Position numbers and translations under genes: made by a program. From IMG/VR virus record IMGVR_UViG_2651869781_000004: a DNA stretch of 20,319 nt. The stretch is one strand, 5' to 3'. The stretch comes from a virus. Its lineage: Duplodnaviria > Heunggongvirae > Uroviricota > Caudoviricetes. Under the pieces are notes generated by a model. That model was not told where the DNA came from, did no database searches, and was given only the letters and a program-made list of their open reading frames with translations. Below, piece after piece: positions 5,185 to 11,537 of the stretch. The stretch's first letter is position 1, and each line of letters begins with the position of its first letter.

Positions 5185-5354
5185 GCTACCTGGCGCAGAA
5201 CGGGCTGATAAGTATGGGGAATGTTTTACGATGAATATTTAGACTAAAGAGTTTGTAACGCTATGTAAGTGATTTTTTCTGGTTTAGATATTTATATGTC
5301 CGGCTAAATTGAGGTGTGTTTAAATGTTATTGCACATTGATTGTAGGGGGAATA

Positions 5355-5534
5355 ATGAAAAACGCATTGCAGTTTTTGTTTGTTGCGTTCTGGTTGTTCG
5401 CATCATGTATGCCCATCATCTTCACAGCAAGGTATATGGAAAAAGTTGATGTTTTGATATTAATGTTTGGACATATAAATGCCCTTTTTTTAGGGGTGTT
5501 CATGGCGGTCATGTGCATTGAATACTGGCGGTAA
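5355..5534 (+). CDS. Small hydrophobic protein (59 aa)
   Basis: ORF-track frame 5316..5534; ATG at 5355 follows GGGGG. Two hydrophobic segments (FLFVAFWLFASCMPIIF and LFLGVFMAVMCI) in very AT-rich surroundings. Confidence 0.3.
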   Translation: MKNALQFLFVAFWLFASCMPIIFTARYMEKVDVLILMFGHINALFLGVFMAVMCIEYWR

Positions 5535-5588: not shown

Positions 5589-5617
5589 TTTGCGGGGAAA
5601 TCTTAGTTAAGTAGAAT
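5589..5617 (+). promoter_or_regulatory. Putative sigma70 promoter of the hok mRNA (TTTGCG - 17 nt - TAGAAT)
   Basis: -35-like TTTGCG (5589-5594) and -10-like TAGAAT (5612-5617). The predicted start (about 5624) coincides with the 5' element that is complementary to the hok 3' end. Confidence 0.35.
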
Positions 5618-5689
5618 GACTGCGGGTGCTTGAGGCTATCTGTCTCAGGCATGAACACCAAAAGGCAGATAGAGAAAAGCCCCAGTTAA

Positions 5690-5780
5690 CATTACGCGTC
5701 CTGCAAGACGCTTAACATTAATCTGAGGCCATATCTATGCGACACATAGAGATTAGCCTCTTACGGACCGAAAGGTCAAG
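5690..5780 (-). ncRNA. Candidate Sok-like antisense RNA region (approximate)
   Basis: Expected by analogy with hok/sok loci. Minus strand has TTGACC (complement of 5774-5779) and a GCGTC-N6-GACGC hairpin at 5696-5711. The -10 is weak and boundaries are not determined. Confidence 0.2.
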
Positions 5781-5796
5781 GAGAAGCAGGCTATGA
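5737..5796 (+). CDS. Short leader ORF (19 codons) ending on the hok start codon; mok-like coupling ORF
   Basis: ATG 5737 with TGAGG 9 nt upstream; its TGA stop (5794-5796) overlaps the hok ATG (5793-5795). Shorter than a typical mok. Confidence 0.3.
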   Translation: MRHIEISLLRTERSRRSRL

Positions 5797-5948
5797 AGCA
5801 GCAAAAGGCGATGTTAATCGCCCTGATCGTCATCTGTTTAACCGTCATAGTGACGGCACTGGTAACGAGGAAAGACCTCTGCGAGGTACGAATCCGAACC
5901 GGCCAGACGGAGGTCGCTGTCTTCACAGCTTACGAACCTGAGGAGTAA
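5793..5948 (+). CDS. hok: Hok/Gef-family type I toxin (51 aa membrane peptide)
   Basis: MKQQKAMLIALIVICLTVIVTALVTRKDLCEVRIRTGQTEVAVFTAYEPEE is the Hok/Gef family signature and is nearly identical to HokD/RelF as recalled. Good SD (AAGGAGAAG) upstream. Confidence 0.9.
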   Translation: MKQQKAMLIALIVICLTVIVTALVTRKDLCEVRIRTGQTEVAVFTAYEPEE

Positions 5949-6016
5949 GAGACCAGGCGAGGGGGAAATCCCTCGCCACCTCTGATGAGTCAGGCATCCT
6001 CAACGCACCCGCACTT

Positions 6017-6043
6017 AACCCGCTTCGGCGGGTTTTGTTTTTT
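6017..6043 (+). terminator. Rho-independent terminator of the hok transcript
   Basis: aacccgc-ttcg-gcgggtt followed by TTTTGTTTTTT. Confidence 0.7.
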
Positions 6044-6115
6044 CCTGGCATTCTGGTTTACAATTCGCACGTCAGCCTGAACACCTGACACCTGCTGCGC
6101 CAGTAGAGAAAACAG

Positions 6116-6388
6116 ATGGCGCACAAAACCAAATTTCACAATTCTGATACCGACCTTGCCATCCGGCATGGGCGGCGTTCACACGCATTTAAAACCGACT
6201 GGTACCAACACCCACCATGTACTGAAGAACAGGCCGAATGGCTAATTCATAACTACCGCAGACGCGGATACGAGATTAAGAAAGCCCTCAGCCTCGATTA
6301 TCGTCACTGGATAATCTATGTCAGGCTCCCTTATTCCGAACGCCCACCGCGTCCGTCCCGCACATTCCAGCAACGCATCTGGAGGTAA
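6116..6388 (+). CDS. Small prophage protein, positionally equivalent to Rem of the Qin prophage
   Basis: 90-aa ORF whose stop (6386-6388) lies 1 nt before the GTG start of the next gene. Sits between hok and a YdfU-like gene, as rem does in Qin. Sequence identity to Rem not verified. Confidence 0.5.
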   Translation: MAHKTKFHNSDTDLAIRHGRRSHAFKTDWYQHPPCTEEQAEWLIHNYRRRGYEIKKALSLDYRHWIIYVRLPYSERPPRPSRTFQQRIWR

Positions 6389-10040: not shown

Positions 10041-10116
10041 GGCCCTTTAGCTCAGTGGTGAGAGCGAGCGACTCATAATCGCCAGGTCGCTGGTTCAAAT
10101 CCAGCAAGGGCCACCA
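10041..10116 (+). tRNA. ileZ: tRNA-Ile2 (anticodon CAU, lysidine type), ileZ-like
   Basis: 76 nt with CCA end. 7-bp acceptor stem GGCCCTT/AAGGGCC, D-arm GCTC...GAGC, anticodon loop CTCATAA, T-loop GGTTCAAATCC. Closely resembles E. coli ileX. Confidence 0.85.
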
Positions 10117-10213: not shown

Positions 10214-10290
10214 GCGTTGTTAGCTCAGCCGGACAGAGCAATTGCCTTCTAAGCAATCGGTCACTGGTTCGAATCCAGTACAACGCGCCA
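10214..10290 (+). tRNA. argO: tRNA-Arg (anticodon UCU), argO-like
   Basis: 77 nt with CCA. Acceptor GCGTTGT/ACAACGC, anticodon loop CTTCTAA (UCU), T-loop GGTTCGAATCC. Confidence 0.85.
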
Positions 10291-10754: not shown

Positions 10755-11146
10755 ATACATATCTGGATTATCACCTGTTACGGTAAAAAGTGATTGCTTA
10801 CTGTTTTTGTGAATGGCATTGCAGCAGCCGGATAATGTCAGTGCTGGCTGACGGTGTGCTGGTGGCGGGTGTGGTGGTTGTTGCTTTCCCGTTGCTGAAA
10901 AAGAAAACGCCAGACTGTTAGCCGGGTATCAGTTAGCGGGAGAAATTTTTAAATACTTCACAATTCAGGCGGTTGACTGTTGTCTGGTTTGCGGGGAGTT
11001 TGTTAAAAGAAACTGGCATGGTGAATCCCCCTGTGCGGAGGGGCAATCAGCGAGTAGGTATATGGGATAATCGCGGATTCAGGTGCTGGTACTGAATTCA
11101 CCGGGAGGCACCCGGCACCATGCAATGGCACATAGCGCCACTCTCC

Positions 11147-11172
11147 AGCCCCTCTCCGGAGGGGCTGTTTAT
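11147..11172 (+). terminator. Putative intrinsic terminator (agcccctc-tccg-gaggggct followed by a T-rich tract)
   Basis: 8-bp GC-rich stem with tetraloop followed by GTTTAT. Lies between the two convergent cargo ORFs. Confidence 0.4.
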
Positions 11173-11201
11173 ATTGATTTTGTCAGATGTGAGTAAACTC
11201 C

Positions 11202-11537
11202 TTATGGACTTTGTTGTTTTAGTCCATAAGGACATATTTGCAGAGTGCAACGGTTATTAAAGCATTCATTCAATACGTTATCTGTATTTGTAGGGCATTC
11301 CTGGCTGTTTTTGATTAAATTCCAGAATGTTTTATTGAATGGTACTACGTTGTAAATGGTTACAGGTAGCACTTTGTTATTGAGCATGATGCCTGTGTGA
11401 GTCAGTGTAAATATACTTTCAGGAGGTAAGAAAGCATCCGATTGATACCAGATTATTAATTTTATTTTACTCCATATGACTGAAAAAGATATTCCGCATG
11501 ATGGCTGGATAACTGTATCAATCACAATCCACTTCAT
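11202..11537 (-). CDS. Hypothetical protein (111 aa) in the stx-equivalent slot, opposite strand
   Basis: Minus-strand ORF with a strong SD (AAGGAAAG 5 nt before the ATG). Six Cys residues, several in the C-terminal third ([24 protein letters not shown]). A perfect 10-bp inverted repeat (11201-11210 / 11221-11230) overlaps its stop. No family recognised. Confidence 0.45.

What the first reader, a model, noticed from the sequence alone, without database searches (positions are those of the whole stretch)
5589..6043. Complete hok-family type I toxin locus with leader-ORF coupling and long-range 5'/3' complementarity
A plausible sigma70 promoter (TTTGCG-17-TAGAAT) precedes a 19-codon leader ORF whose stop overlaps the hok ATG, the toxin gene itself, and a strong terminator. 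The mRNA 5' element tgcgggtgcttgagg (5621-5635) is complementary to cctcaacgcacccgca near the 3' end (5998-6013) with a single bulge, which is the tac/fbi fold-back pairing that keeps full-length hok mRNA translationally inert. This suggests a functional post-segregational killing or abortive-infection module, not a decayed remnant. The antisense Sok partner is expected on the minus strand near 5690-5780 but I could not define a strong promoter.
Basis: partly seen in the sequence, partly recalled or inferred. Interest (0 to 1): 0.45.

Follow-up and report, generated by a model that had tools for sequence, protein, structure and literature searches.

The report
Intact prophage hok/mok/sok toxin–antitoxin locus
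This is a complete copy of the textbook hok/sok RNA-regulated toxin–antitoxin module (the hokD/hokW type carried by lambda-like prophages of E. coli), so it is real and probably functional but already well known.

Summary
Window 5589-6046 holds a full hok-family type I toxin–antitoxin locus. It has a promoter, a 5' 'tac' element at the transcript start, and a 19-codon leader ORF whose UGA overlaps the hok AUG. It also has a 51-aa Hok toxin (Pfam HOK_GEF, 1.2e-23), a 3' 'fbi' element complementary to tac, and a terminator. In 47 distinct homologous loci from Escherichia to Erwinia and Photorhabdus the 5'/3' pairing is kept through compensatory changes. Folding reproduces the three known states of hok mRNA: nascent hairpin, closed full-length form, open truncated form. 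Its RNA is about 5743→5675 on the minus strand, with promoter TTGACC-18-TAATCT, homologous to the experimentally mutated sokW promoter. The same sequence sits in lambdoid prophages of many E. coli genomes, annotated hokD. It is 90% identical to the characterised hokW-sokW of Sakai prophage 5. The one nuance is the leader. It is a short allele of mok, caused by a 2-nt deletion. It occurs in 798 of 5426 E. coli genomes, and the same layout recurs in other lineages. Data from plasmid R1 predict that coupling still works. Verdict: already known, low interest.

The parts
5589..5617 (+). hok/mok mRNA promoter: -35 TTTGCG (5589-5594), 17-nt spacer, -10 TAGAAT (5612-5617)
   Evidence: Read from the sequence. 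In 51 of the 53 homologous loci with a recognisable tac, a -10-like hexamer (TAGAAT, TATAAT, TATATT, TAGTAT...) ends exactly 6 nt before the conserved GGG; two loci have GAAAAT there. The consensus scan does not call it; the -35 is weak and not conserved.
5624..6046 (+). Full-length hok mRNA (about 423 nt), from the inferred start at GGG to the end of the terminator T-run
   Evidence: The start is inferred from the -10 spacing and from the first position of the Rfam model. The 3' end comes from the terminator scan. Fold z-score is -7.5.
5624..5635 (+). tac (translational activator) element GGGUGCUUGAGG. It pairs with fbi in the full-length RNA, with ucb in the truncated RNA, and with 5642-5650 in the nascent RNA.
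   Evidence: folds; conservation and covariation in 47 loci.
5628..5650 (+). Metastable 5' hairpin of the nascent transcript (5628-5636 paired with 5642-5650)
   Evidence: Fold of 5624-5660: -17.1 kcal/mol, z = -3.7. 96.7% of cells are paired across 47 loci, 2 pairs have double changes, and 0 of 500 shuffles reach the covariation score.
5677..5683 (+). ucb (anti-SD of mok), AAGCCCC. It helps sequester the mok SD in the full-length fold and pairs with tac in the truncated fold.
   Evidence: GCCCC is nearly invariant in 47 loci. The element names follow PMC9841398.
5675..5743 (-). Predicted Sok antitoxin RNA (about 69 nt). It has a 5' single-stranded tail antisense to the mok start codon, a long hairpin, then GGGGCUUUU.
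   Evidence: Homology to sokW (71 nt; its probe and -10 mutagenesis primers are in PMC8621323) and alignment A1. Fold: -30.8 kcal/mol, z = -5.5. Hairpin pairs covary (62:102 AU34/GC13; 66:97 GC30/AU16). The ends are inferred, not mapped.
5750..5779 (-). Sok promoter: -35 TTGACC (5779→5774), 18-nt spacer, -10 TAATCT (5755→5750)
   Evidence: It is positionally homologous to the TAACCT box that Takada et al. mutated to silence sokW (primer YO-421; alignment). The generic consensus scan does not call it.
5725..5728 (+). mok Shine-Dalgarno GAGG, 8 nt before the mok ATG
   Evidence: Read from the sequence. TGAGGC is invariant in 47 loci. It is paired in the full-length fold and re-paired with dcb in the truncated fold.
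5737..5796 (+). mok leader ORF, short allele: 19 codons plus a UGA that overlaps the hok AUG (AUGA)
   Evidence: Read from the sequence. There is a 2-nt deletion relative to all close relatives. Frame survey of 47 loci. The allele is present in 798 of 5426 E. coli genomes.
5756..5760 (+). dcb (downstream complementary box) GCCUC, which pairs with the mok SD in the truncated fold
   Evidence: GCCTCTTAC is nearly invariant.
5778..5783 (+). hok Shine-Dalgarno AAGGAG. It lies inside mok and overlaps the Sok -35 on the other strand.
   Evidence: Read from the sequence. CAAGGAG is conserved in 47 loci.
5793..5948 (+). hok toxin gene (51 aa, HokD-type)
   Evidence: Pfam PF01848 1.2e-23; PHROG 251 2.8e-33; annotated hokD in RefSeq.
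5956..5977 (+). Conserved GC-rich 3' UTR stem-loop (GGCGAGGG...CCCTCGCC)
   Evidence: pairs 341-348 with 360-367, including compensatory changes.
5998..6010 (+). fbi (fold-back inhibitory) element CCUCAACGCACCC, complementary to tac with one bulged C
6017..6046 (+). Intrinsic terminator of hok mRNA
   Evidence: 7-bp stem with 5 GC pairs, loop of 4, T-run.

Best explanation
Window 5589-6046 is an intact hok/mok/sok type I toxin–antitoxin locus of the hokD/hokW lineage. It lies in the nin region of a lambdoid E. coli prophage, between the replication genes and the HNH/RusA/Q genes.

Proposed mechanism. Steps 1-5 are inferred from sequence, folding and homology to the R1 and Sp5 systems; nothing was measured here.
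1. A weak constitutive promoter makes a roughly 423-nt mRNA that starts at GGG (5624).
2. During transcription the 5' tac element is held in a local hairpin.
3. In the finished RNA, tac pairs with fbi near the 3' end, and the mok SD is sequestered. The RNA is then neither translated nor bound by Sok.
4. Slow 3' trimming removes fbi. tac switches to ucb, and the mok SD and the Sok target hairpin are exposed.
5. Ribosomes translating the 19-codon mok run across the hok SD and terminate on the hok AUG (AUGA). This allows hok translation, unless the abundant, unstable roughly 69-nt Sok RNA (minus strand, 5743→5675) pairs with the mok start region first and the duplex is cleaved by RNase III.

When Sok supply stops, the 51-aa Hok peptide is made and damages the inner membrane. 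By analogy with hokW-sokW, the likely trigger in this context is prophage induction, and the effect is earlier lysis and more phage release.
For: Identity.
- Pfam HOK_GEF 1.2e-23 and PHROG 'MokW-like host killing' 2.8e-33.
- Rfam RF01794 at 106.7 bits over 5624-5795.
- 100% identical copies are annotated hokD in E. coli chromosomes.
- 90.3% DNA identity to the Sp5 hokW locus, which was shown experimentally to be a type I TA system dependent on RNase III and Hfq (PMC8621323).

RNA switch.
- The full-length MFE forms tac/fbi.
- The truncated RNA forms tac/ucb and SDmok/dcb.
- The nascent RNA forms the 5' hairpin.
- These are the same states described for R1 (PMC9841398).

Conservation.
- All 47 distinct complete loci keep a 10-13-bp tac/fbi duplex.
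- In the 17 distinct tac/fbi types, 96.1% of cells are paired, 5 of 12 pairs show changes on both sides, and 0 of 500 shuffles reach the covariation score. Slid controls give 20-57% pairing.
- RNAalifold finds the helix unaided, with pair 4:404 as UA32/CG12/UG2.

Leader.
- All 47 loci keep an ORF from the conserved ATG to at least the hok ATG, although three different frames are used.
- In R1, mok needs to be translated only up to the hok start (PMC9841398).

Sok: the promoter is homologous to the mutated sokW -10, and the fold has z = -5.5.

Context: lambdoid nin region.
Against: - No expression, processing or toxicity data exist for this copy.
- Both promoters score only 8 of 12 against consensus, and the scan misses them.
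- The short mok allele has not been tested experimentally. A stop placed exactly on the hok AUG is not the case tested in R1, where stops upstream of the start abolished hok expression and stops downstream were neutral.
- Chromosomal hok loci tested earlier (hokA, hokB, hokC) did not mediate post-segregational killing (cited in bioRxiv 10.1101/2025.08.07.668861).
- The tac/fbi duplex energy alone is matched by 0.75% of shuffled UTRs.
- The mini-alignment used was fitted for bulge position (3 choices per sequence).
Confidence: 0.88

Rival explanations
1. The locus is structurally complete but translationally dead. The 2-nt deletion shifts mok so that it stops on the hok start codon. Coupling would be lost, and Hok would never be made: a silent, drifting copy.
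For: All close relatives in alignment A1 have longer mok frames. In R1, premature mok stops upstream of the hok start abolish toxicity (PMC9841398). Many chromosomal hok copies are inactivated in other ways, such as L011 with tac deleted and the K-12 hokD that lacks the 5' half.
Against: The stop lies after the hok SD and overlaps the AUG. The ribosome therefore traverses the whole region that R1 data show must be translated. The same 19-codon/AUGA layout recurs in hokC of E. ruysiae and E. whittamii and in Erwinia and Kalamiella loci. The allele is present in 798 of 5426 E. coli genomes. Hok, tac, fbi, both SDs and the Sok promoter are all intact. AUGA overlaps are a classical termination–reinitiation arrangement (general knowledge).
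Confidence: 0.1
2. The module works as a toxin–antitoxin system, but its role is prophage or plasmid-style addiction (post-segregational killing) or abortive infection against other phages. It would not be a lysis helper during induction.
For: R1 hok/sok stabilises plasmids and has been linked to phage defence (introductions of PMC8621323 and the bioRxiv paper). hok genes are enriched about four-fold in prophages.
Against: The only experimental test of a close homologue in a lambdoid prophage found no growth phenotype from deletion. Hok production was RecA-dependent on induction, and phage release was halved without the locus (PMC8621323). The bioRxiv survey found no enrichment of hok next to defence systems. 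The roles are not mutually exclusive.
Confidence: 0.3
3. The 5'/3' complementarity is a chance match in a GC-rich 3' UTR and has no regulatory role.
For: 15 of 2000 shuffled UTRs reach the same duplex energy. A few unrelated 13-mers in the window pair equally well with the UTR.
Against: The pairing starts at the exact inferred transcript start in every locus. It is kept in 47 of 47 loci, with compensatory changes at five positions. It is the experimentally established tac/fbi stem of the family (PMC9841398).
Confidence: 0.01

Closest known systems
hokW-sokW of Sakai prophage 5 / phage 933W-type Stx2 phages (Takada et al. 2021, PMC8621323)
   Same: 90.3% DNA identity over 432 nt. It is likewise carried by a lambdoid prophage. 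tac, ucb, Sok target hairpin, mok SD and ATG, Sok promoter position, hok SD and fbi are all the same. Both Hok proteins are 51 aa.
   Different: In Sp5 a 1-nt deletion puts mok in frame with hok (a 70-aa 'MokW'), whereas here a 2-nt deletion gives a 19-codon mok. The Hok C-terminus differs (VFVDYESEK versus VFTAYEPEE). The Sok -10 is TAACCT there and TAATCT here, and the -35 is TTGCCT there and TTGACC here. Predicted Sok length is 71 nt there and 69 nt here. Sp5 diverges after fbi and lacks this terminator.
hokD (relF) of E. coli K-12 Qin prophage
   Same: RefSeq gives the gene in this locus the same name, hokD. The K-12 copy is 97.7% identical over query positions 191-454, which cover the hok SD, hok, the 3' UTR, fbi and the terminator.
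   Different: The K-12 copy lacks everything upstream of about 5779: promoter, tac, ucb, mok and sok. Upstream of it lies unrelated sequence, which by my own knowledge is the relBE operon. The window holds the complete form.
hok/mok/sok of plasmid R1 (the paradigm; Gerdes and co-workers; re-examined in PMC9841398)
   Same: The same set of elements in the same order: tac, metastable hairpin, ucb, Sok target, mok SD, dcb, hok and fbi. The same three predicted RNA states. In both systems mok has 19 codons upstream of the hok AUG.
   Different: Hok proteins are only about 44% identical (HokW versus R1 Hok). blastn did not list an R1-type hok locus among the plasmid matches shown. R1 mok is 70 codons in the +1 frame. 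R1 is plasmid-borne with a proven post-segregational killing role.
hokC/mokC (gef) chromosomal locus
   Same: About 75-76% DNA identity over the whole mRNA, with an identical tac. The fbi differs by one wobble.
   Different: The Sok-target hairpin is shorter. mokC is usually in frame (69 aa). It sits in the core chromosome next to dnaJ, not in a prophage.

Membership tests
hok/mok/sok type I toxin–antitoxin family | Small hydrophobic Hok/Gef-family toxin ORF | tested here: met
   Pfam PF01848 E=1.2e-23 at 82.9 bits, against a cutoff of 22. PHROG 251 E=2.8e-33.
hok/mok/sok type I toxin–antitoxin family | Conserved structured hok mRNA 5' leader (Rfam RF01794) | tested here: met
   106.7 bits against a gathering score of 59, full-length model 1-157 on the + strand at 5624-5795. 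The model is named 'sok' but is in hok-sense orientation.
hok/mok/sok type I toxin–antitoxin family | tac/fbi pairing between the extreme 5' end and the 3' UTR of the full-length mRNA | tested here: met
   MFE fold. The duplex is kept in 47 of 47 loci. 96.1% of cells are paired, 5 pairs have double changes, and 0 of 500 shuffles match. RNAalifold finds it independently.
hok/mok/sok type I toxin–antitoxin family | Metastable 5' hairpin that sequesters tac in the nascent transcript | tested here: met
   Fold at -17.1 kcal/mol. 96.7% of cells are paired across 47 loci.
hok/mok/sok type I toxin–antitoxin family | Refolding after 3' truncation: tac/ucb and mok-SD/dcb stems | tested here: met
   In silico only. 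The fold of 5624-5997 pairs 5624-5631 with 5677-5683 and 5725-5729 with 5756-5760, as described for R1.
hok/mok/sok type I toxin–antitoxin family | mok leader ORF with its own SD, translated across the hok SD and start (translational coupling) | tested here: met
   GAGG 5725-5728 and ATG 5737; 19 codons; UGA overlaps the hok AUG. This differs from the 55-70-codon forms but satisfies the requirement mapped in R1. Coupling itself was not measured.
hok/mok/sok type I toxin–antitoxin family | Antisense Sok gene with its own promoter and terminator, complementary to the mok translation initiation region | tested here: inconclusive
   The promoter (TTGACC-18-TAATCT) is placed by homology to the experimentally mutated sokW -10. 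The hairpin plus U-tract fold has z = -5.5. The generic promoter and terminator scan finds neither element, and no transcript data are available.
hok/mok/sok type I toxin–antitoxin family | Hok toxicity, neutralisation by Sok, RNase III cleavage of the duplex, 3' exonucleolytic activation | not testable with these tools
   Shown for the 90%-identical hokW-sokW (toxicity, Sok rescue, RNase III and Hfq dependence; PMC8621323) and for R1. Not shown for this copy.
hokD/hokW prophage lineage | Near-identity to HokD and residence in a lambdoid prophage nin region | tested here: met
   100% identical loci are annotated hokD. Neighbours are replication genes, DUF968/HNH, RusA and Q antiterminator.

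The most novel reading that the evidence does not exclude
The 19-codon mok that ends in AUGA on the hok start may be more than a frameshifted oddity. It could be a recurrent, selected alternative way of coupling (termination–reinitiation). It has arisen independently in hokD-type prophage loci, in hokC of other Escherichia species, and in Erwinia and Kalamiella loci. It may set a different Hok output or Sok sensitivity than the in-frame (Mok-Hok fusion) and +1-frame alleles. More generally, the three interchangeable mok frames show that only ribosome transit is under selection, not any Mok peptide.
Probability: 0.4. Interest if true: 0.3.

Novelty: already known. Interest (0 to 1): 0.1.

Why it matters
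It matters little for discovery. hok/sok is one of the best-studied RNA regulatory switches. This exact sequence is annotated hokD in hundreds of genomes, and a 90%-identical prophage copy has been characterised experimentally.

It has some practical value. RefSeq annotates only the hok CDS here. The mok leader, the Sok RNA and the tac/fbi elements can now be placed to the nucleotide. The window also shows the complete form of the hokD locus, which is truncated in K-12.

The survey of mok frames across 47 loci is a compact natural-variation argument for the view that only mok translation matters. It also flags an untested short-leader allele carried by about 15% of complete E. coli genomes.

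Tried and rejected
- The generic promoter scan found no sigma-70 site on either strand, so both promoters rest on position and homology.
A 3-sequence alignment worked.
- The search for homologous proteins listed only near-identical HokD proteins in its top 120 and was useless for diversity. The search of protein representatives supplied the diverse set.
- RNAduplex on long flanks gave uninformative whole-length duplexes. I replaced it with tac 13-mers against the fbi region.
- The test of cognate versus non-cognate duplex energy was only weakly discriminating. Most tac variants differ by one wobble-tolerant base, so I did not rely on it.
- Duplex energy against shuffled UTRs is only p of about 0.0075 and is not decisive alone.
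- blastn in 'distant' mode did not list R1-type plasmid hok loci among the matches shown. The comparison with R1 therefore rests on the literature and on my own recollection of the R1 sequence, which I did not use as data.
- I considered and rejected the reading that the Rfam 'sok' hit on the + strand means Sok is encoded on the + strand. The model spans tac to the hok AUG, so it is the hok leader.

Full report
**1. What is in the sequence.**
- Promoter: TTTGCG (5589-5594), 17 nt, TAGAAT (5612-5617).
- Leader: an ATG at 5737 opens 19 codons and ends in TGA 5794-5796.
- Toxin gene: that TGA overlaps the ATG (5793-5795) of a 51-codon ORF, 5793-5948.
- Terminator: a GC-rich hairpin at 6017-6034 followed by a T-run.
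- Complementarity: tgcgggtgcttgagg (5621-5635) and cctcaacgcacccgca (5998-6013) are complementary apart from one bulged C.

The 51-aa product is a Hok/Gef toxin (Pfam PF01848, E=1.2e-23; PHROG 'MokW-like host killing', 2.8e-33). Rfam's RF01794 matches 5624-5795 on the + strand end to end at 106.7 bits. That family is called 'sok', but its consensus begins at the tac sequence and ends at the hok AUG. It therefore models the hok mRNA leader, and the hit does not show which strand encodes Sok.

**2. Where it comes from.** The 462-nt locus is 100% identical to chromosomal sequences of several E. coli strains. There only the toxin CDS is annotated, as hokD. A match is present in 4955 of 5426 complete E. 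coli genomes at megablast sensitivity.

The whole window aligns best (96% coverage, 97.8% identity) to a prophage of E. coli O111:H2. Upstream lie the YdaT and replication genes. Downstream lie a DUF968/HNH protein, RusA and a Q-like antiterminator, then tRNAs, lysis genes and terminase. This is the nin region of a lambdoid prophage.

In the phage collection the locus recurs in Rac-like, mEp460-like and Stx2 phages. The Stx2 phage VT2-Sakai (Sp5) copy, 90.3% identical, is the experimentally characterised hokW-sokW. In that system HokW is toxic and sokW (71 nt) neutralises it with help from RNase III and Hfq. Sok disappears after mitomycin C, HokW then appears in the inner membrane in a RecA-dependent way, and deletion halves phage release (PMC8621323).

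The K-12 hokD (relF) matches only query positions 191-454. It lacks the promoter, tac, mok and sok, so the window carries the complete form of that locus.

**3. The RNA switch.** Folding the predicted full-length RNA (5624-6046) gives an MFE in which GGGUGCUUGAGG (5624-5635) pairs with CCUCAACGCACCC (5998-6010). The energy is -171.9 kcal/mol, z = -7.5.

Folding the RNA without its last 49 nt (5624-5997) moves tac onto AAGCCCC (5677-5683). It also pairs the mok SD region GAGGC (5725-5729) with GCCUC (5756-5760) and leaves the 5685-5722 hairpin free-standing.

The first 37 nt alone form a 5' hairpin.

These are the metastable, closed full-length (tac/fbi, SDmok/ucb) and open truncated (tac/ucb, SDmok/dcb) states described for R1 hok mRNA (PMC9841398).

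**4. Conservation and covariation.** One scan of species-representative genomes with a small Hok alignment returned 62 loci. They come from Escherichia, Shigella, Kluyvera, Citrobacter, Photorhabdus, Pantoea, Rosenbergiella, Erwinia and Kalamiella.

In 51 of the 53 loci that retain a tac-like sequence, a -10-like hexamer ends exactly 6 nt before the GGG. This fixes the transcript start at 5624.

Forty-seven distinct complete loci were aligned (A5). All 47 keep a 10-13-bp duplex between the first 12-13 nt and the 3' UTR. Several changes are compensated:
- U4-A to C4-G via U·G (Photorhabdus, Pantoea).
- G9-C to A9-U (Rosenbergiella), with G·U intermediates.
- G11-C to A11-U (Citrobacter youngae).
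- G12-C to A12-U (Photorhabdus).

I built a 17-type mini-alignment in which only the bulge offset was fitted. On it, 96.1% of cells pair, 5 of 12 pairs have changes on both sides, and no shuffle in 500 reaches the observed covariation. Sliding the partner by 1-3 columns gives 20-57% pairing.

RNAalifold on the unfitted alignment finds the inner half of the helix by itself (1-6 with 402-407; pair 4:404 = UA32/CG12/UG2/CA1). It also finds covarying pairs in the Sok-target hairpin and the 3' stem-loop.

The alternative 5' hairpin is likewise kept (96.7% paired). Some of the same tac positions (9 and 11) covary with both partners.

Energy alone is weaker evidence: 15 of 2000 shuffled UTRs match it.

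**5. Sok.** Alignment with Sp5 settles the position.

Takada et al. silenced sokW by mutating TAACCT (their primer YO-421). The homologous hexamer here is TAATCT (5755→5750, minus strand). It is preceded at 18 nt by TTGACC (5779→5774).

The sokW probe ends where a start 7 nt downstream of the -10 would fall. By the same spacing, Sok here starts near G5743 and is antisense to the mok start codon. It runs through a long imperfect hairpin to GGGGCUUUU (5683→5675), giving about 69 nt. This RNA folds to -30.8 kcal/mol, z = -5.5. The ends are inferred.

**6. The leader is a short mok allele.** Relative to all close relatives, the window lacks 2 nt just after the mok ATG. The deletion sits in the loop of a small hairpin that holds the AUG, and at the very 5' end of Sok.

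Across the 47 loci the ORF that starts at the conserved SD and ATG uses three different frames:
- In frame with hok, 68-70 codons: 29 loci, including Sp5 'MokW' and mokC.
- The classical +1 frame, 55-69 codons: 11 loci, including Rac.
- The frame that ends after 19 codons in the UGA of AUGA: 7 loci. These are the window, a soil MAG, hokC of E. ruysiae and E. whittamii, two Erwinia loci and one Kalamiella locus.

In every locus the ORF stays open at least to the hok AUG. A 40-mer spanning the deletion is found exactly in 798 of 5426 E. coli genomes.

Saturation mutagenesis of R1 showed that mok must be translated up to the hok initiation region but not beyond it. In R1 too, 19 mok codons precede the hok AUG (PMC9841398). 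The short allele therefore meets the known requirement. Whether termination exactly on the AUG changes the yield is untested.

**7. Interpretation.** The best-supported reading (confidence about 0.88) is an intact, probably active hok/mok/sok module of the hokD/hokW prophage lineage, working by the R1 mechanism.

Its role in this setting is most likely the one shown for hokW-sokW. Addiction or phage exclusion cannot be excluded. A recent survey finds hok about four-fold enriched in prophages and not enriched next to defence systems (bioRxiv 10.1101/2025.08.07.668861).

The main rival, a copy silenced by the mok frameshift, gets about 0.1. The arguments against it are the allele's recurrence, its frequency, and the intact state of every other element.

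**8. Novelty.** The family, its mechanism, its covariation pattern, its presence in lambdoid prophages and this very sequence are already known. What is unannotated in databases is the placement of mok, Sok and the RNA elements. The only mildly new observation is the recurrent 19-codon/AUGA mok layout. Interest is low (0.1).

Noticed in passing
window 5316-5534 (+): A 72-aa very hydrophobic ORF (GTG start) sits directly upstream of the hok promoter. It has no Pfam or PHROG match and is not annotated in the RefSeq relatives. It could be a small membrane protein or could be spurious.
   Followed up: partly
window 10987-11176 (+); 10041-10113 and 10214-10287 (+); 11202-11537 (-): An Rfam STnc100 sRNA (132 bits), two tRNA genes (annotated tRNA-Ile and tRNA-Arg in the relative) and an IraM-like anti-adapter gene lie downstream of the Q-like antiterminator. 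These are typical lambdoid late-region cargo.
   Followed up: no
window 5990-6169 (-): RefSeq relatives annotate a 59-aa 'hypothetical protein' on the minus strand. It runs across the hok fbi and terminator and into the next gene. It is probably an annotation artefact.
   Followed up: no
window 5624-5795 (+), Rfam RF01794: The Rfam family named 'sok antitoxin (CssrC)' is modelled in the hok-sense orientation, from tac to the hok AUG. Hits report the strand of the hok mRNA leader, not the strand of the Sok gene.
   Followed up: yes
L018, L028, L035; hit H17 (PP818812.1): HokD-encoding loci (100%, 96% and 100% protein identity to the window's Hok) sit on contigs labelled Veillonella parvula MAG, Acinetobacter idrijaensis (275 nt) and Xanthomonas pisi (431 nt). 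A 94%-identical locus is in 'Actinobacillus phage vB_Apl-pPE4'. These probably reflect contamination, mis-binning or a mislabelled host.
   Followed up: no
L011 (E. coli ECMA0423, 1947610-1949162); L012, L017, L034, L039: These are examples of decayed copies. L011 has lost the tac element (GACTGCATGTGGCTATGTGCC) while keeping an intact Hok ORF. L012 and L017 (E. coli, Shigella), L034 and L039 share one unrelated upstream sequence in place of tac, mok and sok; this looks like the K-12-type hokD arrangement (relBE upstream, by my own knowledge).
   Followed up: partly
L007 (plasmid NZ_LR130553.1) and L026 (E. coli ECDA1023 hokC): In both loci the 3' UTR is cut at the same point inside the conserved stem-loop (…GATCCCATAAGCGCTAACTTAAGGGTT…), and fbi is lost. 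In L007 an IS4-like IS421 transposase gene is annotated just downstream. Such copies lack fold-back inhibition.
   Followed up: no
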